A stretch of DNA of 54,238 bases from a virus (lineage: Duplodnaviria > Heunggongvirae > Uroviricota > Caudoviricetes). Positions within the stretch are counted from its first letter, which is position 1; the number at the start of each line of letters is the position of its first letter. The stretch is taken from IMG/VR virus record IMGVR_UViG_2541047842_000005. The stretch is one strand, 5' to 3'. Positions 2,521 through 44,788 of the stretch are shown one piece after another. Under the pieces are notes generated by a model. It had not been told where the DNA came from, did no database searches, and was given only the letters and a program-made list of their open reading frames with translations. The position numbers and the translations under genes are program-made.

Positions 2521-3942
2521 TTAAAAAGATGCGTTATTCTGGTTGTTTCGTGGTGAGAATCGGCTTGCAGACGGACGTTGTTGCATTGACTGGATGCAAG
2601 CTGACGCCGCGCGGGCCTGGTCGCATGGTAAGATGTTGCCGTTGTCGTCAAACCGCTGGTAAACAGTCCCCGTTTTCCCGTGACGGTTTTTCGAAACAAT
2701 GATCTCCATATATTCGCGGGCAACAGACTGTTCATCATAGTACCCGTCGCGGTAGACCATGATGATCCGGTCTGCGTCCTGTTCAAGATTACCGGAATCA
2801 CGCAGATCAGAATTGTTCGGGCGCTTGTTCGGTCGTTCCTCAACGCGGCGGGATAATTGCGCCAGTGCCAACACTGGTACGCGCAATTCTTTCGCCATCA
2901 TCTTCAACGACCATGACAATTGCCCTACAGCGAGATCGTGACGTTCGGCCTTAGCCAGCTTCATCAACCCGATGTAGTCAATCATTACCATACCGAGGTT
3001 GGGATGATCCTGTTTCATCCGTTCCGTTGTGGCGCGTATTTCCTCAACCGTTAATTGAGACGCGTCAACAATCCAAACGTCAAGATTAGCAAGTGCGCTC
3101 ATACCCTGACCAACATGCGCCAACCCCTCATCATCAAGTTTTACAGGATTACGCAGGCAGTCGGTTGATAAATTACCAGCGCCAGCTATAGCGCGTTCAG
3201 TCATCTGATCGAGTGACATTTCAAGCGTGAAGAACAAAACGCCAACCCGCTGATCTTTACTGCCAGGGTAAGGGTGCTCAGCAGCAGCGCGGGCAATCGC
3301 CAGCGCCAACGCAGATTTACCAGACCCAGGGCGTCCGGCGAGAAGTACCAAATCAGTAGCGTTAATACCGCCTAACATTTCGTCGAGCGGTTCTATCCCT
3401 GTTTTGATGTTGTCAGAATTGACACCGCATTCCATGCGCTTGCTTAAAACCTCTGTGTATTCCTGTACCGCATCGCGCAACAGAACAGGAATGATCTTGT
3501 CTTTCGTTACCTTTAATTTTGAATACCGGGAATCAAAATCTTTCATCGTCTCTTTGACGACTTCAAGCGTCCCCGTTTCCAGCTTGTAGCGCATATCGTC
3601 GATGAGTTCTAACATCTGCCGCCGCTGGTGCTCTTCACGTAGTAGCTGCGCATAGCCTTTCAGGTTTGCGGCAGAAGGACACGAACGCGCCGTTTGCATT
3701 AGCGGTACAAAGTTTTCATTGCCAATCTCATCGCCAACCAATAACGCGTCGATAAGATTCCTGTTTCTGGCTTGCGCCCGGATAACTTCAAACGCACGTT
3801 TGTAAAGCGGGATCGTGAACACTTCAGGATCCAGAGTGGCGAGAACATCTTGCGCGTTAGGAGTGAGGCCGCCTAACAGCAGCCCGCCGATAACTGACGC
3901 TTCACGTTCCTGCCGTAGTGAGTTTATTTGCTCAGTTACCAT
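2521..3942 (-). CDS. replicative DNA helicase, DnaB family
   Basis: 473 aa; Walker A LAGRPGSGKSALA, then DnaB-type motifs (FTLEMS, MVMIDYIGLM, ALAQLSRRVEERPNKRPNNSDLRDSGNLEQDAD). Confidence 0.9.
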   Translation of the reverse strand: MVTEQINSLRQEREASVIGGLLLGGLTPNAQDVLATLDPEVFTIPLYKRAFEVIRAQARNRNLIDALLVGDEIGNENFVPLMQTARSCPSAANLKGYAQLLREEHQRRQMLELIDDMRYKLETGTLEVVKETMKDFDSRYSKLKVTKDKIIPVLLRDAVQEYTEVLSKRMECGVNSDNIKTGIEPLDEMLGGINATDLVLLAGRPGSGKSALALAIARAAAEHPYPGSKDQRVGVLFFTLEMSLDQMTERAIAGAGNLSTDCLRNPVKLDDEGLAHVGQGMSALANLDVWIVDASQLTVEEIRATTERMKQDHPNLGMVMIDYIGLMKLAKAERHDLAVGQLSWSLKMMAKELRVPVLALAQLSRRVEERPNKRPNNSDLRDSGNLEQDADRIIMVYRDGYYDEQSVAREYMEIIVSKNRHGKTGTVYQRFDDNGNILPCDQARAASACIQSMQQRPSASRFSPRNNQNNASF

Positions 3943-5255: not shown

Positions 5256-6179
5256 TCATTGGCAGCAAACAAGCCCTTTATATGCTTCTTCTACCATGTC
5301 GAATACTTCCGGCCTGTAATAGAAAAACTCATTACTGCCATCAAATTTTACAGGAAAGTTAATTTTATAATTGCTGAAATATTTATGCATCATGCTTTCT
5401 AATTCATGGATATTTTCGGTTGGACCTTCTAACGTTTTCACGACACATAAATCAGGGATTCTAACGCCTGATTTATGTGCGCTTTTTAATACCCGATTTC
5501 TTCGCTTGTTCTCATTAACGCTTACGCCGATTTTCATTTGTGTAGGCACTTCAGGATCATCAACCATGATGTAAAGTTTGCCGAAATTGTGTGACAAAAA
5601 ACCGTGTTTCGCACATTTCGGGCAGCCTTGCCCGCTTTTAATAGCATAAGGTCTAGGCGACCACTTATGATCACAAACCTTGCATCGACATAATACTTTT
5701 GTCCTATCGTTTATTATTTCTCCCAATACTTCAATATCATGATTTACCTTAGTGATAGCGGATAAATGTTCTTCGTGTGATAATGTTCGTCTTTGTGCGA
5801 TTTTTAAACCTTTACATTTCGGGCAGCCGCGCCCGTTTTTTAGGTTGTTAGGTTTAGCCGACCATTCGTGATTACAAACTTTGCAGCGGCATAATGCTTT
5901 TGTATCGCCGTTTATTATTTCGCCAATCACTTCGACATCAGAATTAACCTTCTCGATAGCGGCAACCTGTTCTTCGTGTGATAATTTCATCTTTCCGGCG
6001 CATTTCGGGCAGCCGTAACCGCTTTTAAGATTGTAAGGTCTAGCCGACCATTCGTGACTGCAAACCTTGCAGCGGCAGGATACTTTTGTCCTGTTATTGA
6101 CAATTTCCCCCAGCACTTCGACATCATGATTAACCTTAGCGATAGCCGCAACCTGTTCATCATGTGTTAACTTGCGCAT
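5256..6179 (-). CDS. triple zinc-ribbon repeat protein with C-terminal T5orf172/GIY-YIG-like domain
   Basis: 307 aa; three tandem ~56-aa repeats HxEQVAAIxKVNxDVEVxGEIxNxxTKxxCRCKVCxHEWSAxPxNLKxGxGCPKC; C-terminus GKLYIMVDD..KIGVSVNENKRRNR..H..EFFYY fits the T5orf172 pattern; strong SD AAGGAG. Confidence 0.55.
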   Translation of the reverse strand: MRKLTHDEQVAAIAKVNHDVEVLGEIVNNRTKVSCRCKVCSHEWSARPYNLKSGYGCPKCAGKMKLSHEEQVAAIEKVNSDVEVIGEIINGDTKALCRCKVCNHEWSAKPNNLKNGRGCPKCKGLKIAQRRTLSHEEHLSAITKVNHDIEVLGEIINDRTKVLCRCKVCDHKWSPRPYAIKSGQGCPKCAKHGFLSHNFGKLYIMVDDPEVPTQMKIGVSVNENKRRNRVLKSAHKSGVRIPDLCVVKTLEGPTENIHELESMMHKYFSNYKINFPVKFDGSNEFFYYRPEVFDMVEEAYKGLVCCQ

Positions 6180-8168: not shown

Positions 8169-8816
8169 ATGAAAACAAAATGGTATGACTTAGCAAAGCA
8201 GCTCATGCGGGCGCAGGGCATGAGTCAGGATTCACTCGCAGATCTCATGGGGATAACTAAAGGCGGCCTGTCACACTGGCTGAACGGTCGCCGCGAGCCA
8301 AATCTTGAAGATATTGCGCGGATTATGCGGGCGCTTGGTCGTCGGCAGTTCACTGTTACACATGATGGTATGGTCATTGATGATTCTGTTTCTAATACAC
8401 TTCAGGCCGCACCGCCGCGTGATTTAGGTAGTTACCCGGTTATTGACTGGAAGGACACAGTAAACAATATGGATGACACAAGGCGATCAGCATTACCACA
8501 CGTTACGACTAGCGTTATTTGTTCAGATGATAGTTACTGGCTGGTTGCCAAAGGTGAATCAATGAACGCGCCGCAGGGGTTGAGCATCCCGGCGGGGACG
8601 ATGATACTTGTTGACCCGCACGCGCCAGCTATTGACGGCAAACTGGTTATAGCCCAGCTTGAGGAAGGGCAGATACCGACGTTTAAACAGTTGATTATTG
8701 ATGGAGGTCAAAGGCTTTTACGTTCGCTCAATCCGCTGTATCCGCCAATCCCTATGAATCCAGAATCAAAAATTATAGGCGTGGTGGTTGATGCGAAGAT
8801 CGTAAACCTGCCATAA
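8169..8816 (+). CDS. cI: cI-type phage repressor (HTH plus S24 LexA-like peptidase domain)
   Basis: 215 aa; N-terminal HTH (QDSLADLMGITKGGLSHWLNGRREP); C-terminal S24 fold with GESM serine and a downstream FKQL lysine. Confidence 0.85.
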   Translation: MKTKWYDLAKQLMRAQGMSQDSLADLMGITKGGLSHWLNGRREPNLEDIARIMRALGRRQFTVTHDGMVIDDSVSNTLQAAPPRDLGSYPVIDWKDTVNNMDDTRRSALPHVTTSVICSDDSYWLVAKGESMNAPQGLSIPAGTMILVDPHAPAIDGKLVIAQLEEGQIPTFKQLIIDGGQRLLRSLNPLYPPIPMNPESKIIGVVVDAKIVNLP

Positions 8817-16388: not shown

Positions 16389-16547
16389 AATTTACAAAAT
16401 GGCGCCATTGCGTGATGTGGATCACATAATGGCGCTATTCACCTTGTTCTGGTGTATCCATTTTGTATACTTCAAGCAAACGAAATGCTCTTTAAAAATC
16501 CGGCAGCGCTGAAATGCGTAGAAATCACCTGAAAAGGAGAGAGCATT

Positions 16548-37877: not shown

Positions 37878-37889
37878 AAGGTGAATACT

Positions 37890-38588
37890 ATGATCCATGT
37901 TCGTACAGGACAATTTGCTGCCGTGGTGAACGGTAAGCGCTATGAGTTTAATCCTTGCTTTGCTGCGATGGCTAAAATCGGCAACGATAGTGAGCTTGTC
38001 GAATATTTCGCACTTATCCACGGCGGCAAATATCCATCACGATTGCCAGCAGATCCAGACCTACGCAATCGCATTCTGGCGCGGTGTTATGGTGAAATAG
38101 TTCAGACATCAATGCACATCCTGAAATGTTGCTCAGACGACGAAATAGGCCCGTTATTGGGCGAATGCTGGTTTACTCCTTCGGGTAAGTTAAAGTTAAA
38201 GCCCGGATTAATGCCGATCGAGGATATCATCACGCTTGCGCAGCACTGCATGTACCACGGTCTTATTGGTGATGGCCCGGAAGAAGAGTCCGGGGAAATC
38301 CCGGAAGGGGAATATAAGCCGACTTTTAACGTCCTTGAATTCGTCTATTCTGCCGTTGCTCACCTGGGCTTGTCAGAATCGGAAGCATGGAATATGACAA
38401 TGACCGGATATAGGGCCGCTGTACGCGCTAAAACGCCGCCAGACGAAAGAAACGAGAAAAGCAAGCCAAACATTCACATAAATAAACGTGCTTATGACGA
38501 GCAAATGGAGGCCGCTAAAAAGGCACTAGAAAGAATGAAAAATCGTGAGCAAGAAAAGCCCGGTAGATCCGGGCGTTTTGCTAATTGA
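37890..38588 (+). CDS. putative tail assembly chaperone
   Basis: 232 aa from ATG 37890 (SD AAGGTG; track start 37881 is a GTG); position between the major tail and tape measure genes. Confidence 0.4.
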   Translation: MIHVRTGQFAAVVNGKRYEFNPCFAAMAKIGNDSELVEYFALIHGGKYPSRLPADPDLRNRILARCYGEIVQTSMHILKCCSDDEIGPLLGECWFTPSGKLKLKPGLMPIEDIITLAQHCMYHGLIGDGPEEESGEIPEGEYKPTFNVLEFVYSAVAHLGLSESEAWNMTMTGYRAAVRAKTPPDERNEKSKPNIHINKRAYDEQMEAAKKALERMKNREQEKPGRSGRFAN

Positions 38589-38955
38589 AATCTTTAATTG
38601 CTGTACCTGGTGAACTGTGTGTGATTGTATTGTATACAGACTTTGCCTTACTGCGATCTTTCCATTCTTTTAGGATGCAGTTATCAAACTTTGCGATAAC
38701 CCTTGAAGGGGATAATTCTTCAACATCCATGTAAGTAAATCCTATCGTGCTGGTTACTGAATACCATACGTGATAACTATAATTACCGTCATGCTCGATT
38801 CTTTGTGGTTCCCCCATTATTTTATTCACTTGCTCACAAGTCATTCCAACTTGCAAATTTTTATCAGCTAACTTAACGAAATCAGTTGATCTTGCGCACC
38901 CTGTAAGAGCTAAAGCCATAACACCAATGAGAACCGCTTTGATTATTTTTTTCAT
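38581..38955 (-). CDS. lipoprotein (moron, opposite strand within the tail operon)
   Basis: 124 aa; signal peptide with lipobox LTGC (MKKIIKAVLIGVMALALTGC). Confidence 0.65.
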   Translation of the reverse strand: MKKIIKAVLIGVMALALTGCARSTDFVKLADKNLQVGMTCEQVNKIMGEPQRIEHDGNYSYHVWYSVTSTIGFTYMDVEELSPSRVIAKFDNCILKEWKDRSKAKSVYNTITHSSPGTAIKDFN

Positions 38956-38965
38956 GATTTACCCC

Positions 38966-39625
38966 TTAATTCCAGTTGCAAGCGTTTTTCACTTTGTCGA
39001 TGTGGTTATAAAGACCATCAATGTTAAACACTGCTTTCTCAATGTCGCCAGCTTCCGGCACTACTTCAATGATGAATTGTTTTTCGTTAACCAGTTTTTT
39101 AATCATTGGGATGGCTTTTTTGCCGTCCCATAATCCAAGAGCTTTATAATTAGTTGACCGCCACCACTCAGTAGCTACAGCTTTGTGAACGCCGATCCGG
39201 TAGTTAATATAAGTAGTGTCCCCGGCGTCAGTTACATGGTGTGACCATGCTACGAACATTTTTGTTTTATTACCCTGGCAAGCGATTGTTAATACCGGTT
39301 TATTCTTATCCTGTGCCTTCAGTGTCGGGAAAGCATCAAGACTTCCGCTGAATTGTTCTGCTTTCACAAAAAGGAATACGTTTTTTGCGTCCTGCATATC
39401 ATCTTTTCTTTCAACTACAAGCCACTGTTTACCAGCATTTTCTTTTTCTAACTGTGCATCGTATGCGGCTTGTTTTGCTTGTTGTTCTGCAAGCCATTTA
39501 GCATTTTTCTCTGCTAATGCTTGTTGCTCTTGATTGGTCACTATAGGCGCTTTTTCATTATCCTCATTGCAACCAACCAGACCCAATACCGCCGCAATCA
39601 TTGCCACTTTTGCTAACCGTTTCAT
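38966..39625 (-). CDS. lipoprotein (moron, opposite strand within the tail operon)
   Basis: 219 aa; signal peptide with lipobox LVGC (MKRLAKVAMIAAVLGLVGC); SD GGTGGG upstream. Confidence 0.65.
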   Translation of the reverse strand: MKRLAKVAMIAAVLGLVGCNEDNEKAPIVTNQEQQALAEKNAKWLAEQQAKQAAYDAQLEKENAGKQWLVVERKDDMQDAKNVFLFVKAEQFSGSLDAFPTLKAQDKNKPVLTIACQGNKTKMFVAWSHHVTDAGDTTYINYRIGVHKAVATEWWRSTNYKALGLWDGKKAIPMIKKLVNEKQFIIEVVPEAGDIEKAVFNIDGLYNHIDKVKNACNWN

Positions 39626-39672
39626 AACCCACCACGCTAACTTGATTTACTGACCATTCCCTTTAGCTTCCT

Positions 39673-39712
39673 TATACAAAATGGAGTCGTTGAAGTAAAG
39701 CCATTTTGTATA
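39673..39712. repeat. inverted repeat TATACAAAATGG - N16 - CCATTTTGTATA in the divergent intergenic region
   Basis: 12-nt arms, perfect; lies between the start of the minus-strand lipoprotein gene and the tape measure gene. Confidence 0.6.
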
Positions 39713-39752
39713 AAATAGATACACAGATCACATTTTTGCATGAGGTTAAATC

Positions 39753-42095
39753 ATGGCTACCAGTGTAGGTACAATTTATTACGAAGTTGATGCGAAAACT
39801 GGTCAACTTCTCGTTGCACAACGACAGGCAGACCAGGCCTTTGATCGTATAGAGCGCGGCGCAAAACAGGCTGACCGCCAGGTAAACACCCTGAAAACAT
39901 CCATCAAGGCACTGACCAGGGTTATCCATCTGCTAATTGCTGCGGAGGCTGTGCGCCAATTTATGGATATGGCGGAGCAAGCAAAAATGCTTCGCGTAAA
40001 AATCAAAATGCTTACGGGCGATGCGGAGTCCGCCGGACGGGTTTTCGACGGCCTGAAAGCAATATCCAGGGAGACGGGGCAGAGCCTGAAAGATACTGGC
40101 GAATTATGGCAAGGCCTGGCTATCTCACTAAAAAACACCTCCGCTACGGAAGGGCAATTGCTTAACCTGGTTGGCACTATTCAGAAAATGGGTGCATTAG
40201 GCGGCGCGTCAGCGGAACAGATGTCTAACTCAATGCGTCAATTCCGTCAGTCTATCGACGGCGGTGTTCTTCGTGCCGAAGAATTTAACAGCCTGCTTGA
40301 AAATACGCCGACCATCGTACAAACAATGGCCCGCCATATGGGATTATCAATGGGCCAGTTCCGCGCCGAAATGCTGGACGGCAAGATCACGGCTGAAAGG
40401 ATGGTTAACGCAATACAGGCGGCTACGCAGGAAACAAACGATAAGTTTGCTCAGTTGCCGCGCACATCCGGCATGGCTATCAATGAGCTTAAAGTAGAAA
40501 TTATGGGCCTTGTTGAGCAGTTGGATGATCTTTTTGGCGTGTCAGATGGCGTTGTTTCAGCTATCGACTTGATCACGAAAGGCGTTAAAGGGCTTGGCGA
40601 TGGCGCTAAATTCGCTAAAACCTGCTTCGACACACTCAAAACGGCTGGTAGCGAATTTATCGACATGTTTGATGATGTGGCTGTTAAGGCTGGAGAGGTG
40701 GCCGAGAAGATCATCGCAATGGTGACGCCAATCAAGGCACTAATGGATGCCTACAAATGGATGAAGGAGGTCGTAGGAGAGCAAACCGACGAATATAACA
40801 GCAACTACGAGAAGAAATACGGTAAGACCGTTGGCAAGGTCATGCAACTACAGGATGATCTGACCGCAGCAATCCAGGCTACAGAAGAAGCAAGGAAAAA
40901 TGAACAGAATGCCGCCAATGACGGAGCGATTACCGGATTCGACAAGCCAGTAGACAAACCGAAAAAACAGAAAAAAGAGAAGAAATCTGAAGCTGATCGT
41001 CTTGGCGATAAAGGTATAAGCGTTTCTGACCAGTACAACAAAGACGCCGCCGCTATGCGCAAAGCGTTAGAGAGCGGCAAGGCCATTGATGCTGCATTCG
41101 CCCAGGGTAAAATCACTCTCCTTGAGTACCGCGCCGCGCAAAAAGGGATAGGTAAGGAACTAAAGGAAGAATTAGCACAAATTCCGGTAGAGGAATTGCG
41201 CGACAAATGGGAGCAAATAGTAAGCCCGATGGATCAGCTAAAGGGCGAAGTAGACCCTATTCAGCAGGTTCAAAATGAATGGGCCGTCCGTAAGCAAATG
41301 CTTATCGACCTGGGCGTGACGGAAGCGCAACAGAAACAGGAACTGTTAGCCTATGAGCAACAGATCCGCGATCTGAAGTGGGAGCAATGGCAGGCGCAAA
41401 GCGACACAAACAGCCTTATCGGTGATTGCGTTAATGGCCTTAAAGGTGGTATGAGCAATGCACTTGTTGGCCTGTTAAATGGTACTCAATCATTGAGTGA
41501 TGTTTTTGCTAACTTAGGCAGCAATATCCTCGGGAATATCGGTAACAGGCTTTCAGACATAGCTGCAAACTGGATAGCAGATCAGATCATGATGGAAACG
41601 CAAAGCAAAGCGACTCAGGCAAGTACCACGGCGGGCGCGGTAGCGGCGCAAGGCCAGATTGCTGCGGCGGCGGCCCCGGCGGCGGCGGCAACAGCGGCGT
41701 CAACTGGCGGCGCATGGGCGGCGGCTGGTTCTGCGGCACTCACTGCGATCATGTCGCTGGCTACGTCAATTTTTGGCGGCGGTCGCTTTAATGGTGGTAG
41801 CGTCATTGGTGGCAATATGTACCGTGTAGGGGAACACAACAGGCCGGAGCTATTCCAGACATCTAACGGAAATCAATATATGATCCCTGGCGAGAATGGC
41901 AGGGTTATTCCTGGTCGTGACATTGGCGGTGGCGGCGGCATTAGTATGCCTGTCAATATCAACATTCAGACCACAAACGGATTTAGCGACGAGGACAGCC
42001 GCAGACTTGAGCAGACAATGGAACGTGTAGCAATGAAAATGATAACAAGGGAATCACAACGACCAGGCGGAATATTGCAACCTCGCCGCAAATAA
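39753..42095 (+). CDS. tail tape measure protein
   Basis: 780 aa; long coiled-coil regions and a Gly/Ala-rich hydrophobic segment (AAAAAPAAAATAASTGGAWAAAGSAALTAIMSLATSIFGGG) typical of tape measure proteins. Confidence 0.85.
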   Translation: MATSVGTIYYEVDAKTGQLLVAQRQADQAFDRIERGAKQADRQVNTLKTSIKALTRVIHLLIAAEAVRQFMDMAEQAKMLRVKIKMLTGDAESAGRVFDGLKAISRETGQSLKDTGELWQGLAISLKNTSATEGQLLNLVGTIQKMGALGGASAEQMSNSMRQFRQSIDGGVLRAEEFNSLLENTPTIVQTMARHMGLSMGQFRAEMLDGKITAERMVNAIQAATQETNDKFAQLPRTSGMAINELKVEIMGLVEQLDDLFGVSDGVVSAIDLITKGVKGLGDGAKFAKTCFDTLKTAGSEFIDMFDDVAVKAGEVAEKIIAMVTPIKALMDAYKWMKEVVGEQTDEYNSNYEKKYGKTVGKVMQLQDDLTAAIQATEEARKNEQNAANDGAITGFDKPVDKPKKQKKEKKSEADRLGDKGISVSDQYNKDAAAMRKALESGKAIDAAFAQGKITLLEYRAAQKGIGKELKEELAQIPVEELRDKWEQIVSPMDQLKGEVDPIQQVQNEWAVRKQMLIDLGVTEAQQKQELLAYEQQIRDLKWEQWQAQSDTNSLIGDCVNGLKGGMSNALVGLLNGTQSLSDVFANLGSNILGNIGNRLSDIAANWIADQIMMETQSKATQASTTAGAVAAQGQIAAAAAPAAAATAASTGGAWAAAGSAALTAIMSLATSIFGGGRFNGGSVIGGNMYRVGEHNRPELFQTSNGNQYMIPGENGRVIPGRDIGGGGGISMPVNINIQTTNGFSDEDSRRLEQTMERVAMKMITRESQRPGGILQPRRK

Positions 42096-42101
42096 ACAAA
42101 A

Positions 42102-42131
42102 CCCCGGCACAATGCCGGGGCTATCTTTATT
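42102..42131. terminator. bidirectional rho-independent terminator
   Basis: CCCCGGC-ACAAT-GCCGGGG flanked by an A-rich tract upstream and a T-rich tract downstream. Confidence 0.55.
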
Positions 42132-42306
42132 CAATTTCATCATTTTTAAATTCGCCGTTTGCATAAAGCTGTAATGCGCTTATCAGTTCGTCAGCTTGCT
42201 TTTTGTCTATTACAATCATCTCGCAGTCGCTAACGTTCCATAATCTTCCATCATCTTCAACACTAAGATCAATCCTTCTGCATTCTTCAGTCTCATGAAT
42301 AATCAT
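42127..42306 (-). CDS. small hypothetical protein (59 aa), moron cluster 1
   Basis: MIIHETEECRRIDLSVEDDGRLWNV...; SD GAAGG upstream; not in the ORF track. Confidence 0.3.
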   Translation of the reverse strand: MIIHETEECRRIDLSVEDDGRLWNVSDCEMIVIDKKQADELISALQLYANGEFKNDEIE

Positions 42307-42345
42307 TATAAACCTTCATTATGTTATTAATTTTAGTGAATAAAT

Positions 42346-42516
42346 TTACTCAAATCTTGTATACCCTCTTTCAATTTTCCCTCCGTGTACACTTCTGGCA
42401 AATACCGCGTCAGTATACCTAAAAAATGGGCATGTATATGTATCACCTTTACTATCCATCCATTTTAGCACCCATGCCATACGTTTTACATTGCTTTTAT
42501 TTGCCGGGTTTTTCAT
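42346..42516 (-). CDS. small hypothetical protein (56 aa), moron cluster 1
   Basis: MKNPANKSNVKRMAWVLKWMDSKGDTYTCPFF...; strong SD GGAGGAAAATAAA-ATG; not in the ORF track. Confidence 0.35.
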   Translation of the reverse strand: MKNPANKSNVKRMAWVLKWMDSKGDTYTCPFFRYTDAVFARSVHGGKIERGYTRFE

Positions 42517-42634
42517 TTTATTTTCCTCCGCAAATTACAATCTTCCGTTTCTTGCTATATAGCTGCGAGAAAACATTACCAACCAAATATTCCAGATCTC
42601 CCTCCAGGTGAATTTATCGTCCTCCATACCCACC

Positions 42635-42889
42635 TCACTTATGGCAACCGCGAACGCCAGACAATTCATTGAATTTATGGTGTTCAACAATCACCCACTC
42701 CTTCAGATCCTGGCTATAGACTCGCCAGTCTAAATTGGCGCGGAAGGCGTAGCCGTAACCGTCTTTCAATTTTTTGGGTGACGCATTCTTGTTTAAAAAC
42801 GCGTTCAAAAGTTCCTTTGCTTTTTTGACTACATGCCCCGGCGCGTTTTTCTGTGCTTTCAGATTTTTGTCAATCGCTACCAGTTTCAT
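42635..42889 (-). CDS. HigB/RelE-superfamily toxin-like protein
   Basis: 84 aa; N-terminus MKLVAIDKNLKAQKNAPGH parallels E. coli HigB MHLITQKALKDAAEKYPQH and C-terminal ..LDWRVYSQDLKEWVIVEHHKF fits the RelE/HigB pattern (from memory). Confidence 0.4.
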   Translation of the reverse strand: MKLVAIDKNLKAQKNAPGHVVKKAKELLNAFLNKNASPKKLKDGYGYAFRANLDWRVYSQDLKEWVIVEHHKFNELSGVRGCHK

Positions 42890-42906
42890 AACTCACCCCA
42901 TCATCC

Positions 42907-43062
42907 TTAGTTAAGTGCCTTCAGGAAGAAGTCCCGGTATTCATCTTCTTTTGCATTCATCATGAATTGACCGTATTTGAATGCGTCGTCGAAACCCTTA
43001 ACGATTGCTATTTCCACTTGTTCGAATGCGTTGTTTAGCATTACCACTACATAGCGTTTCAT
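42907..43062 (-). CDS. small hypothetical protein (51 aa), upstream partner of the toxin-like gene
   Basis: Track ORF 42907-43137; ATG at 43062 has strong SD AAGGAGG 6 nt upstream. Confidence 0.35.
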   Translation of the reverse strand: MKRYVVVMLNNAFEQVEIAIVKGFDDAFKYGQFMMNAKEDEYRDFFLKALN

Positions 43063-43175
43063 TTTGGGCCTCCTTCGTTGGTACTGCTTTTCTTCTTGCT
43101 TTCTGTATACATCTTGTTGCGAACTATGTGAAGCCATATTGTAAACTAGCTATAATCATTGTACTGAAGATCTCA

Positions 43176-43878: not shown

Positions 43879-44127
43879 TCATAACGCCCCCTTCAAATAT
43901 GTCAATCCCTTATCAGTGACGAATGAGTGATTAACCTGGTTTTCATCCGTCATGATGATAAATAACTTTTCCTGTAGGTATTTCGCTTTAGGGTACAGCG
44001 TTAAGCAGACCTGGTACAGTATCCCGCGCTCAATCAGCAAATCAATAAATTCGTGTTCATGATAACCGATGAGGCGGGCGGCCTGTTTCAACGTGTACAC
44101 ATAATCACCGTGATTGCGCCGCCCCAT
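43879..44127 (-). CDS. hypothetical protein (82 aa), possibly HTH
   Basis: YTLKQAARLIGYHEHEFIDLLIERGIL has helix-turn-helix character; moron cluster 2. Confidence 0.4.
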   Translation of the reverse strand: MGRRNHGDYVYTLKQAARLIGYHEHEFIDLLIERGILYQVCLTLYPKAKYLQEKLFIIMTDENQVNHSFVTDKGLTYLKGAL

Positions 44128-44136
44128 GTTGCCGCC

Positions 44137-44490
44137 TTATTTATCGAATGCTGAAAGGTTATCGATACAGAAATCTTTCGCCGCTTTTTCGTATTCGCGT
44201 TTTGCTTCTGGATCGTCAGCCGGGAAACCTTTTGCGTGTATTTCACCAGGGCAAGACTGGTCCATAGAATCTGCATAATAAGCAGTGAAGCTACCATTAA
44301 TATCTTTCGGGTTCATATCTTCCACCTTATCCGGTATTTGTACTGGAGTAATTTTGAATTCTCTGGCGCGACCGAAGAATCGAACGAGTTTTTCTCCTTC
44401 CTCGACCGCCATTTCGTAACTGTCATGCAAACCGTAACCTTCCCAATCATCACTACCAGCCATCCAGACATCAAGACGATACTTTTGCAT
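44137..44490 (-). CDS. hypothetical protein (about 118 aa)
   Basis: Track ORF 44137-44592; ATG at 44490 has SD GAGGG and follows the stop of the upstream gene. Confidence 0.4.
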   Translation of the reverse strand: MQKYRLDVWMAGSDDWEGYGLHDSYEMAVEEGEKLVRFFGRAREFKITPVQIPDKVEDMNPKDINGSFTAYYADSMDQSCPGEIHAKGFPADDPEAKREYEKAAKDFCIDNLSAFDK

Positions 44491-44494
44491 TTTG

Positions 44495-44659
44495 CTAACC
44501 CTCATATTTGACAGGTTCGATCTGGTATCCCAAAAGGCGGTCATCCTCAGCAAGTAAAAGCGCGTCAACCAATGCTTCACCCTCGTCGTCATACAGGGCG
44601 ATAACCTTTTCCCTACCGTCTGTCATGAATACCGTCAACTTCCATAGCTTTTCAGTCAT
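44495..44659 (-). CDS. small hypothetical protein (about 54-60 aa)
   Basis: Track ORF 44495-44779 is over-extended; in-frame ATGs at 44677, 44668 and 44659; promoter-like TTGATC-17-TATATT on the minus strand at about 44709-44737. Confidence 0.3.
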   Translation of the reverse strand: MTEKLWKLTVFMTDGREKVIALYDDEGEALVDALLLAEDDRLLGYQIEPVKYEG

Positions 44660-44788
44660 AACGCACATCCGCGCCATTTTGTTAACCATGCTTCCGTTTG
44701 AGTAAAATATACATATTGTAAAAACCATGATCAATCCATTTTGGTGTGATTTAGCGTGACGCATATCACAAAATGACAAGGTGAGAAA

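What the first reader, a model, noticed from the sequence alone, without database searches (positions are those of the whole stretch)
38581..39625. Two opposite-strand lipoprotein morons inserted between the tail chaperone and tape measure genes
Two minus-strand genes with classical lipoprotein signal peptides (lipoboxes LTGC and LVGC) interrupt an otherwise uniformly plus-strand tail operon, and are transcribed from the divergent region carrying the TATACAAAATGG inverted repeat. In T5 (Llp) and phi80/N15/T1 (Cor), prophage lipoproteins at comparable positions block the phage receptor and give superinfection exclusion; these two are longer (124 and 219 aa) and show no similarity I can recognise, so they may be a new exclusion or envelope-remodelling pair.
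Basis: partly seen in the sequence, partly recalled or inferred. Interest (0 to 1): 0.55.

Follow-up and report, generated by a model that had tools for sequence, protein, structure and literature searches.

The report
Swappable lipoprotein cargo in prophage tail operon
Two real, selected lipoprotein genes sit backwards in the classic "moron" slot of an E. coli prophage tail operon; they are an ordinary kind of prophage add-on, one belongs to a poorly understood family linked to bacterial type VI secretion, and their function is still untested.

Summary
Two minus-strand genes, 38581-38955 (124 aa, lipobox LTGC) and 38966-39625 (219 aa, lipobox LVGC), lie between a DUF6246 gene and the tape-measure gene of an mEpimmI-group (mEp021-like) E. 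coli prophage.

They are low-GC, under purifying selection, and end at an intrinsic terminator. This is the position of the archetypal HK97 gene-15 moron.

Parts of the interpretation fail:
- **Similarity exists.** The 219-aa protein passes Pfam VasI/DUF3121 (PGAP calls it "TagO") and its model resembles IalB. The 124-aa protein's model has a BamE/OsmE/BLIP-like fold.
- **Not an obligate pair.** Each gene occurs alone or with other partners in the same slot.
- **Backbone signals.** The inverted-repeat control region and the terminator are conserved whatever the cargo. Unrelated cargo even share a signal-peptide leader.
- **Not tied to receptor type.** The same cassette travels with three J receptor-binding ends and two tape-measure types. 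This group's tested Cor-like exclusion lipoproteins sit after J and are unrelated.
- **Not a lone interruption.** The tail operon carries three more minus-strand blocks.

Best reading: independently swappable envelope proteins, probably made from the prophage, acting in envelope-level conflict such as entry block or toxin protection. Function and expression timing are untested. This is a new member of a known kind, of moderate interest.

The parts
38966..39625 (-). orfB: 219-aa lipoprotein. Signal peptide residues 1-18, lipid Cys19, helix about residues 31-63, then a VasI/DUF3121 beta-domain (residues 55-218) with a conserved Cys116/Cys216 pair.
39569..39580 (-). Lipobox L-V-G-C of orfB (residues 16-19). 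The +2 residue is Asn.
   Evidence: The +2 residue varies among homologues (N, R, D, G, E).
38581..38955 (-). orfA: 124-aa lipoprotein with lipid Cys20, a BamE/OsmE/BLIP-like fold and a conserved Cys40/Cys93 pair. It starts 10 nt after the orfB stop, so the two are probably co-transcribed.
38896..38907 (-). Lipobox L-T-G-C of orfA (residues 17-20). The +2 residue is Ala.
38578..39653 (.). Variable cargo segment of the slot. It comprises the orfA module (about 38580-38960) and the orfB module (about 38950-39653).
   Evidence: blastn breakpoints against nine relatives that carry other cargo. GC 0.37 and 0.41 against 0.475-0.504 in the flanks.
38558..38574 (.). Bidirectional intrinsic terminator: a 6-bp GC stem with T-runs on both strands. 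It lies inside the last codons of the DUF6246 gene and ends the minus-strand cassette. It is part of the conserved backbone.
   Evidence: fold z -3.9 and -4.2. Annotated at the same place in mEp021, mEp010 and mEp515. It lies inside the conserved flank.
39672..39713 (.). Perfect 13-nt inverted repeat, TTATACAAAATGG-N16-CCATTTTGTATAA, in the divergent control region. It is conserved whatever the cargo.
   Evidence: The half-site is over-represented in the window: 13 matches against 2.8 expected.
39671..39699 (-). Candidate sigma-70 promoter for orfB-orfA: TTTACT-17 nt-TATAAG. Its -10 element lies in the left arm of the repeat. This is inferred only.
   Evidence: Read from the sequence and conserved in relatives. 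The consensus scan did not list it because of the G at position 6 of the -10.
37881..38588 (+). Left neighbour: DUF6246 protein, which occupies the position of a tail assembly chaperone. It overlaps the orfA stop by 8 nt.
   Evidence: Pfam PF19759 at 2.2e-54. The chaperone role is positional inference only.
39753..42095 (+). Right neighbour: tape measure protein.
   Evidence: Pfam TMP_3 at 1.1e-49 and PHROG 1538.

Best explanation
The segment 38578-39653 is exchangeable cargo in a fixed expression 'socket' of an mEpimmI-group (mEp021-like) E. coli prophage. The socket lies between the DUF6246 gene and the tape-measure gene, the same position as HK97 gene 15, the first described moron.

**The socket.** The phage backbone supplies three things:
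- a conserved divergent control region with a 13-bp inverted repeat;
- for first-position cargo, often a shared Sec leader (MKRLAKV...);
- a bidirectional terminator.

**The cargo.** It supplies ribosome-binding sites and coding sequences. Here there are two independently assorting modules:
- orfB is a lipid-anchored protein with a helical stalk and the C-terminal beta-domain of the VasI/DUF3121 family (IalB-like fold).
- orfA is a small BamE/OsmE/BLIP-like lipoprotein.

**Inferred location.** Both should be exported, lipidated and disulfide-bonded. Neither has Asp at +2, so in this allele both should be sorted to the periplasmic face of the outer membrane.

**Inferred expression.** They would be transcribed leftward from the control region. 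Late tail transcripts would read through them antisense under antitermination.

**Most likely role (inferred, not shown).** They are envelope-level conflict factors that benefit the lysogen. They could block a post-adsorption entry step of other phages, or protect against other agents that attack or penetrate the envelope. A Cor/Llp-style block of the phage's own receptor is less likely.
For: **Anatomy (shown)**
- ORFs, lipoboxes and conserved Cys pairs.
- Purifying selection.
- Low GC.
- Terminator.
- Homology breakpoints at 38578 and 39654, with conserved flanks around at least five cargo families.
- Independent assortment in 18 IMG/VR loci (9 with orfA, 7 with a 106-aa gene, 1 alone, 1 truncated) and in E. 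coli genomes.
- Nucleotide-level sharing of the leader between a VasI lipoprotein and an unrelated signal-peptidase-I-secreted protein.

**Family and fold**
- VasI family.
- IalB and MotY folds.
- BamE/OsmE/BLIP/BtiO folds.

**Why a conflict role**
- Position. HK97 gp15, in the same chaperone-tape measure position, is a prophage-expressed exclusion protein (PMC3594210).
- Cargo nature. Almost all alternative cargo in the slot is exported or membrane protein. Rapid swapping of such cargo is typical of conflict loci.
- Other phages. VasI homologues sit in accessory positions of unrelated temperate phages. In P2-like phages they lie next to the integrase and a Hok-like module. In Brucella phage BiPBO1 the gene starts 9 nt downstream of, and is co-oriented with, a gene annotated as a transcriptional repressor.

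**Why not a self-receptor block**
- The cassette is uncoupled from J and tape-measure type.
- It is unrelated to the tested Lpp021 and Lpp010 (PMC11893012).
Against: - There are no expression data. The promoter is only a 9/12 consensus match that the scan did not list.
- The inverted repeat overlaps the candidate -10. Its half-site recurs around the CI-like repressor gene. The cassette could therefore be repressed in lysogens and expressed only during infection.
- No phenotype is known for either protein family in phages. PADLOC gives no hit.
- Both structure models have only moderate confidence (pLDDT 68 and 72, from shallow alignments).
- The +2 sorting residue of orfB varies among homologues, including Asp in one. 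The membrane of residence is therefore uncertain.
- The one studied VasI (VCA0118) aids type VI killing rather than protecting the cell (PMC3166118).
Confidence: 0.45

Rival explanations
1. One reading: the two lipoproteins act together as a Cor/Llp-like system. They would bind and block the outer-membrane receptor of this phage's J fibre, excluding superinfecting phages that use the same receptor.
For: - Both are predicted periplasm-facing lipoproteins in a tail gene cluster.
- This window lacks the small Lpp-type lipoprotein that mEp021 and mEp010 carry after J. A different exclusion factor could therefore have taken over.
- Lipoprotein-mediated exclusion has been shown experimentally in this phage group (PMC11893012).
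Against: - The same cassette occurs with three different J C-terminal domains, and M1/5 has the same J without orfA.
- orfA and orfB occur separately.
- There is no similarity to Lpp021 or Lpp010 beyond the signal peptide.
- The mature proteins are 2-3 times larger than Cor/Llp-type proteins.
- The genes are not adjacent to J.
Confidence: 0.15
2. A type VI secretion role. One version: orfB is a phage-borne VasI/TagO that modulates the host's own T6SS-2, a lysogenic conversion of killing efficiency. The other version: orfA and/or orfB shield the lysogen from incoming type VI effectors as orphan immunity or inhibitor proteins.
For: - orfB passes the Pfam VasI threshold.
- It shares the C-terminal domain and both cysteines with the genuine E. 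coli T6SS-2 VasI, 32% identity over 114 aa.
- VCA0118 is exported and is needed for full killing but not for Hcp secretion (PMC3166118).
Against: - orfB fails the T6SS-equivalog model: 47 bits against a 124 cut-off, where the real E. coli VasI scores 257.
- It does not match the N-terminal part of the VasI profiles (the Pfam match starts at position 25, the NCBIfam match at 31). It also lacks the N-terminal RLxCYD-type cysteine repeats seen in the other phage homologues.
- It is not in a T6SS cluster.
- The family also occurs in phages of hosts such as Brucella. To my own knowledge, untested here, these have no T6SS.
- The function of TagO itself is listed as unknown (PMC13584744).
Confidence: 0.15
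3. The genes act during lytic growth, not lysogeny. One example is a T5 Llp-like role, protecting progeny from inactivation on debris. Another is adjusting the envelope for release. In this model the inverted repeat is an operator that keeps them off in the prophage.
For: - The repeat overlaps the candidate -10. Its half-site is over-represented (13 against 2.8 expected) and flanks the CI-like repressor gene.
- The control region is backbone-encoded and conserved, as expected for a regulated promoter.
Against: - No protein is known to bind the repeat.
- The position and the variable, exported cargo match lysogeny-expressed morons such as HK97 gp15.
- The phage has its own holin, endolysin and spanin set elsewhere.
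Confidence: 0.12
4. A host-interaction or virulence role, like lambda Bor/Lom or Bartonella IalB. The exposed or released lipoproteins would alter adhesion, invasion or serum resistance of the E. coli lysogen.
For: - Carriers include human and animal gut isolates and STEC.
Against: - The mechanism and even the location of IalB are unsettled.
- IalB-domain proteins also have housekeeping periplasmic roles.
- Nothing indicates surface exposure.
- The slot holds many unrelated alternatives, which suits microbial conflict better.
Confidence: 0.06

Closest known systems
HK97 gene 15 moron (gp15, YebO-like superinfection exclusion protein)
   Same: It has the same genomic position, between the tail chaperone-position gene and the tape measure gene. 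It is extra DNA with aberrant GC. gp15 is a prophage-expressed envelope protein that protects against other phages (PMC3594210).
   Different: - gp15 is a small inner-membrane protein, not a lipoprotein, and is unrelated in sequence.
- A classical moron carries its own promoter and terminator. Here both are conserved backbone and only the coding modules swap.
- The function of orfA and orfB is untested.
Cor (phi80/N15/T1), Llp (T5) and Lpp021/Lpp010 of mEpimmI phages: receptor-blocking exclusion lipoproteins
   Same: They are phage-encoded lipoproteins of the cell envelope in or near tail gene clusters. Exclusion by Lpp021 and Lpp010 has been shown in this very phage group (PMC11893012).
   Different: - Those proteins are 60-80 aa, sit next to the receptor-binding gene, and track receptor type.
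- orfA and orfB are larger and lie 7 kb from J.
- They are uncoupled from J type.
- They share only signal-peptide similarity with Lpp021/Lpp010.
VasI / TagO / DUF3121 (V. cholerae VCA0118; E. coli T6SS-2 VasI)
   Same: - orfB passes the Pfam threshold.
- It shares the C-terminal beta-domain, both cysteines and the C-terminal AC(N/H)W motif.
- Both are exported proteins.
   Different: - orfB is not in a T6SS cluster.
- It fails the NCBIfam equivalog cut-off.
- It does not match the N-terminal part of the family profiles.
- It carries a lipobox plus a helical stalk instead.
- The function of VasI is itself unknown.
IalB (invasion-associated locus B, PDB 3dtd) and the MotY N-terminal domain
   Different: Sequence identity is about 9%. 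No shared function has been established, and the model has only moderate confidence.
BamE / OsmE / SmpA_OmlA lipoproteins and BLIP-like inhibitor proteins
   Different: It scores below the Pfam and NCBIfam thresholds. It has an extra C-terminal segment and a conserved disulfide pair. It is a narrow, prophage-restricted family.

Membership tests
Phage moron (Hendrix/Juhala sense; HK97 gene 15 archetype) | Extra DNA between genes that are adjacent or differently filled in related phages | tested here: met
   The flanks are 81-92% identical in mEp021, MagusPhagus, mEp515, M1/5 and N1286 (73-85% in three more distant contigs), while 38578-39653 is replaced by other genes.
Phage moron (Hendrix/Juhala sense; HK97 gene 15 archetype) | Base composition differs from neighbouring genes | tested here: met
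   GC is 0.368 (orfA) and 0.412 (orfB) against 0.475 (DUF6246) and 0.504 (tape measure).
Phage moron (Hendrix/Juhala sense; HK97 gene 15 archetype) | The element carries its own promoter and terminator | tested here: inconclusive
   A terminator (38558-38574) and a candidate promoter (39671-39699) flank the genes. Both lie in sequence conserved across phages with different cargo, so they belong to the slot, not to the insert. Promoter activity is untested.
Phage moron (Hendrix/Juhala sense; HK97 gene 15 archetype) | Expressed from the repressed prophage | not testable with these tools
   No transcriptome or proteome data were available.
Bacterial lipoproteins (Lgt/Lsp substrates) | Basic n-region, hydrophobic h-region and lipobox [LVI][ASTVI][GAS]C near residue 20 | tested here: met
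   MKKIIKAVLIGVMALALTG|C and MKRLAKVAMIAAVLGLVG|C. Gly-Cys is invariant in homologues.
Bacterial lipoproteins (Lgt/Lsp substrates) | Actual lipidation and membrane sorting | not testable with these tools
   There is no Asp at +2 in this allele, which predicts the outer membrane under the E. coli +2 rule. The +2 residue varies among orfB homologues, including Asp in P0007.
Pfam PF11319 VasI (DUF3121) | Score above the Pfam gathering threshold | tested here: met
   58.1 bits against 26.5. Residues 55-218 match profile positions 25-184 of 184.
T6SS-associated VasI/TagO (NCBIfam TIGR03360 equivalog) | Score above the curated equivalog cut-off | tested here: not met
   47.4 bits against a 124.2 cut-off. 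E. coli EDL933 T6SS-2 VasI scores 257.4.
T6SS-associated VasI/TagO (NCBIfam TIGR03360 equivalog) | Encoded within a type VI secretion gene cluster | tested here: not met
   The neighbours are tail tube, DUF6246 and tape measure genes. Compare the EDL933 vasI gene, which lies between tssH and tssA.
Cor/Llp/Lpp-type receptor-blocking exclusion lipoproteins | Sequence relationship to a tested member | tested here: not met
   Only signal-peptide matches to Lpp021 and Lpp010. No Pfam or PHROG hit to an annotated exclusion family. Cor and Llp sequences themselves were not compared.
Cor/Llp/Lpp-type receptor-blocking exclusion lipoproteins | Gene linked to, and co-varying with, the receptor-binding protein | tested here: not met
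   The cassette lies 7 kb upstream of J. The same cassette occurs with three J C-terminal types (48-72% identity over partial alignments).
Cor/Llp/Lpp-type receptor-blocking exclusion lipoproteins | Exclusion phenotype on expression | not testable with these tools
   This needs plating assays.
BamE / SmpA_OmlA (PF04355) and OsmE | Score above the curated threshold | tested here: not met
   BamE 18.9 bits against 23.2; OsmE 17.8 against 65.
BamE / SmpA_OmlA (PF04355) and OsmE | Shared fold | tested here: met

The most novel reading that the evidence does not exclude
The VasI/IalB-type beta-domain is a general periplasmic 'guard' module. Temperate phages of several lineages have captured it repeatedly. 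Here it is fused to a lipid anchor and stalk behind a backbone-encoded export leader. Its role would be to protect lysogens against envelope-piercing machines such as phage tails, tailocins or type VI spikes, or to tune the host's own T6SS. If so, this prophage slot would give the first functional handle on TagO/VasI, whose role is still listed as unknown. It would also define a leader-sharing expression socket that phages use to shuffle exported conflict proteins.
Probability: 0.12. Interest if true: 0.75.

Novelty: new member of a known kind. Interest (0 to 1): 0.4.

Why it matters
If the proteins act as proposed, three things would follow.
- They would add two new protein families to the small set of known envelope-level prophage protection factors.
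- They would show that the classic chaperone-tape measure moron position is a reusable expression socket. Here the promoter, the terminator and even the export leader stay fixed while the mature domains are swapped.
- They would give an experimental entry point to VasI/TagO, a type VI-associated family whose function was still listed as unknown in a 2026 review.

If they have no phenotype, this is simply another uncharacterised prophage cargo pair.

The practical gain today is a corrected annotation. 'TagO' on these prophage genes should not be read as evidence of a type VI function.

Tried and rejected
- **Sequence search of solved structures.** Nothing for either protein.
- **PADLOC defence models.** No hit for either protein or for five alternative cargo proteins.
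- **Rfam on 38300-40000.** Only a chance-level hit.
- **Profile search to deepen the orfB alignment.** No new sequences, so both AF2 models rest on 8-9 close homologues.
- **Species-representative genomes.** Scans for both families found nothing.
- **AlphaFold database fold search.** Unavailable.
- **BFVD viral fold search for orfB.** Only uncharacterised phage proteins.
- **Supplement of the mEpimmI paper.** It did not contain these peptide strings. I could not tell whether the paper's untested lipoprotein 'types' include orfA or orfB.
- **Tail-assembly-inhibition (Tai) systems.** Considered as an analogue and dropped, because they sit elsewhere and are unrelated.
- **A lysis or spanin role.** Rejected, because the phage has its own Rz/Rz1 at 26371-26841.
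- **Reading the inverted repeat as a LexA, TyrR or DnaA site.** By eye, none fits well.
Full report
**What is there**

The window is an E. coli prophage of the mEpimmI (mEp021-like) group.
- The region 38400-39900 is 100% identical to E. coli N25 and is present in 27 of 5426 complete E. coli genomes. Fourteen of these carry both genes.
- The flanks are 81-87% identical to phages mEp021, mEp010, mEp013, mEp044, mEp515, mEp554 and MagusPhagus.
- Both have textbook lipoprotein signals, ALALTG|C20 and LGLVG|C19. The lipobox Gly-Cys is invariant in homologues.
- A window-wide scan of all possible starts found only one other convincing lipoprotein signal, the Rz1 o-spanin.
- Each protein also keeps a conserved pair of further cysteines, C40/C93 in orfA and C116/C216 in orfB. 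This fits a periplasmic, disulfide-bonded protein.
- Both genes evolve under purifying selection. dN/dS is 0.12-0.26 for orfB and 0.07-0.10 for orfA.

**The slot**

The neighbours are the tail tube gene, a DUF6246 gene and the tape measure gene.

blastn against nine relatives places the homology breaks at window 38578 and 39654. Everything between them is variable. Everything outside is conserved, including two features:
- a bidirectional intrinsic terminator at 38558-38574, annotated at the same place in mEp021, mEp010 and mEp515;
- an 85-nt block upstream of the tape measure ATG that holds the perfect 13-nt inverted repeat at 39672-39684 and 39701-39713.

The promoter region and the terminator therefore belong to the backbone, and the insert brings only ribosome-binding sites and coding sequence. 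The only candidate leftward promoter is TTTACT-17-TATAAG at 39671-39699, which overlaps the left arm of the repeat. The consensus scan did not list it.

GC is 0.37 and 0.41 in the cargo against 0.475-0.504 in the flanks.

This is the same position as HK97 gene 15. That gene was the first element ever called a moron, and it encodes a prophage-expressed superinfection-exclusion protein (PMC3594210).

**Modularity**

The slot holds at least five cargo families:
- a divergent family of signal-peptidase-I-secreted proteins of 119-138 aa (mEp021_63, mEp515_83 and a 129-aa protein);
- the VasI-type lipoprotein (orfB);
- the orfA family;
- a 106-aa protein without a signal peptide;
- a 100-aa membrane protein.

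orfB occurs in three arrangements:
- with orfA, as in this window;
- with the 106-aa gene, in M1/5 and in 7 of 18 IMG/VR loci;
- alone.

orfA-type genes also occur in three arrangements:
- alone;
- with the 129-aa secreted protein;
- with the 138-aa secreted protein.

They are therefore not an obligate pair.

First-position cargo of unrelated mature sequence share the 5' leader at the nucleotide level. ATGAAACGGTTAGCAAAAGTGG... encodes MKRLAKV... and diverges only at the cleavage region, LVGC against AFNAHA. This points to recombination inside the signal-peptide coding region. It also suggests that export is the constant requirement of the slot.

**What the proteins are**

*orfB*
- It is not an orphan. 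It scores 58.1 bits on Pfam VasI/DUF3121 against a cut-off of 26.5, and PGAP names it 'TagO'.
- It fails the T6SS-equivalog model TIGR03360, with 47 bits against a cut-off of 124. The genuine E. coli T6SS-2 VasI scores 257.
- It shares only the C-terminal half with that protein, at 32% identity over 114 aa.
- Phage homologues in P2-like phages and in Brucella phage BiPBO1 are signal-peptidase-I-secreted and carry N-terminal RLxCYD-type cysteine repeats. orfB has instead a lipobox and a helix of about 33 residues.

*orfA*
- Its family is very narrow. An exhaustive HMMER search of 1.84 billion representatives found only 11 relatives.

Neither family was found in species-representative genomes.

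**What is known about the family**

VasI/TagO is listed as 'Unknown' in a 2026 review of T6SS accessory factors (PMC13584744). V. cholerae VCA0118 is exported. It is not needed for Hcp or VgrG-1 secretion, but it is needed for full killing of amoebae and E. coli (PMC3166118). IalB-domain proteins are periplasmic and their mechanism is unknown.

**Testing the Cor/Llp idea**

In this phage group the experimentally tested exclusion lipoproteins are Lpp021 (72 aa) and Lpp010 (82 aa). They lie just after J and track receptor use, OmpA or LamB (PMC11893012).
- orfA and orfB match them only in the signal peptide.
- The same orfA/orfB cassette (97-99% and 93-97% identical) is found with three different J C-termini, and with a tape measure only 47% identical in strain MLI107.
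- A block of the phage's own receptor, tied to its own fibre, is therefore unlikely.
- In this window the post-J position holds a small secreted protein instead of an Lpp.

**Most likely mechanism**

Shown:
- the anatomy of the slot;
- the export signals;
- the family and fold assignments;
- selection on both genes;
- independent assortment of the two modules.

Inferred:
- leftward transcription from the control region, ending at the terminator;
- lipidation and placement at the periplasmic face of the outer membrane, given no Asp at +2 here (the +2 residue varies among orfB homologues);
- a role in envelope-level conflict.

My support for the conflict role rests on three points:
- the HK97 gp15 precedent at the same position;
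- the nearly exclusive presence of exported or membrane cargo in a rapidly swapped slot;
- the recurrence of VasI-family genes in accessory positions of unrelated temperate phages. These lie beside the integrase and a Hok-like module in P2-like phages. In BiPBO1 the gene starts 9 nt downstream of a gene annotated as a transcriptional repressor.

I put about 0.45 on this composite reading. The rivals are:
- a Cor/Llp-like self-receptor block (0.15);
- a type VI-related role (0.15);
- lytic-cycle rather than lysogenic expression (0.12);
- a host-interaction role (0.06).

**Caveats**

- There are no expression data.
- The repeat overlaps the candidate -10. Its half-site is over-represented in the window (13 matches against 2.8 expected) and flanks the CI-like repressor gene. 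The cassette may therefore be regulated, or even repressed in lysogens.
- Both models have moderate confidence.
- PADLOC gives no hits.

**Verdict**

It is partly wrong on four points: similarity does exist, the genes are not a pair, the cassette is not at a Cor-like position, and it does not bring its own regulatory signals. I rate it a new member of a known kind, of moderate interest. The more novel possibility is that phage-borne VasI domains reveal what TagO/VasI does.

Noticed in passing
window 3959, 5243, 8083, 8926, 9605, 16390/16458, 30661, 31681, 39672/39701, 43201, 52083: The repeat half-site TTATACAAAATGG (core TACAAAATG) occurs 13 times at two or fewer mismatches, against 2.8 expected and a maximum of 8 in shuffles. 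Most copies are intergenic. They flank the CI-like repressor gene (8169-8816). They form a second inverted pair at 16390/16458. They also sit at two other divergent junctions of the tail operon (43201, 52083). This may be an operator, an activator site or a promoter element.
   Followed up: partly
window 39560-39625; L009 4001-4060; L011 3579-3640; L002 about 3135-3194: Unrelated first-position cargo proteins share the first 45 nt or so (MKRLAKV..AAL.G), then diverge into either a lipobox or a signal-peptidase-I site. This suggests recombination inside the leader and a backbone-supplied export signal.
   Followed up: partly
window 42127-43137 and 43879-44779 (minus strand): There are two further opposite-strand accessory blocks inside the tail operon. 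They include a ParE-like toxin domain protein (42635-42889, PF24732) and a KilAC antirepressor-like protein (43879-44127). Their content also varies between relatives.
   Followed up: partly
window 51722-51967 (minus strand): mEp021 and mEp010 carry their tested exclusion lipoproteins just after J. This phage, like M1/5, encodes at that position an 81-aa protein with a signal-peptidase-I-type leader (MKKLIVACILSALSFGAFA|S) and no known family.
   Followed up: partly
window 30478-31869: Pfam calls this gene a phage portal (Phage_portal_3, 1.2e-17). PGAP labels the gene at the same position in related prophages 'anti-CBASS protein Acb1 family protein'. This is probably an annotation artefact worth checking.
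   Followed up: no
L016 3358-4588; L017 3436-4666: In P2-like phages the VasI/TagO homologue (297 aa, secreted, with three RLxCYD-type repeats) is always preceded by a 110-aa zinc-ribbon protein with predicted membrane segments. This suggests a two-gene module between the ogr/Hok-like region and the integrase.
   Followed up: no
window 5256-6179 (minus strand): The early region encodes a protein that combines CapR-homology/DUF4379 zinc-finger repeats with a T5orf172/MUG113 nuclease-like domain. It may be a defence or anti-defence gene.
   Followed up: no
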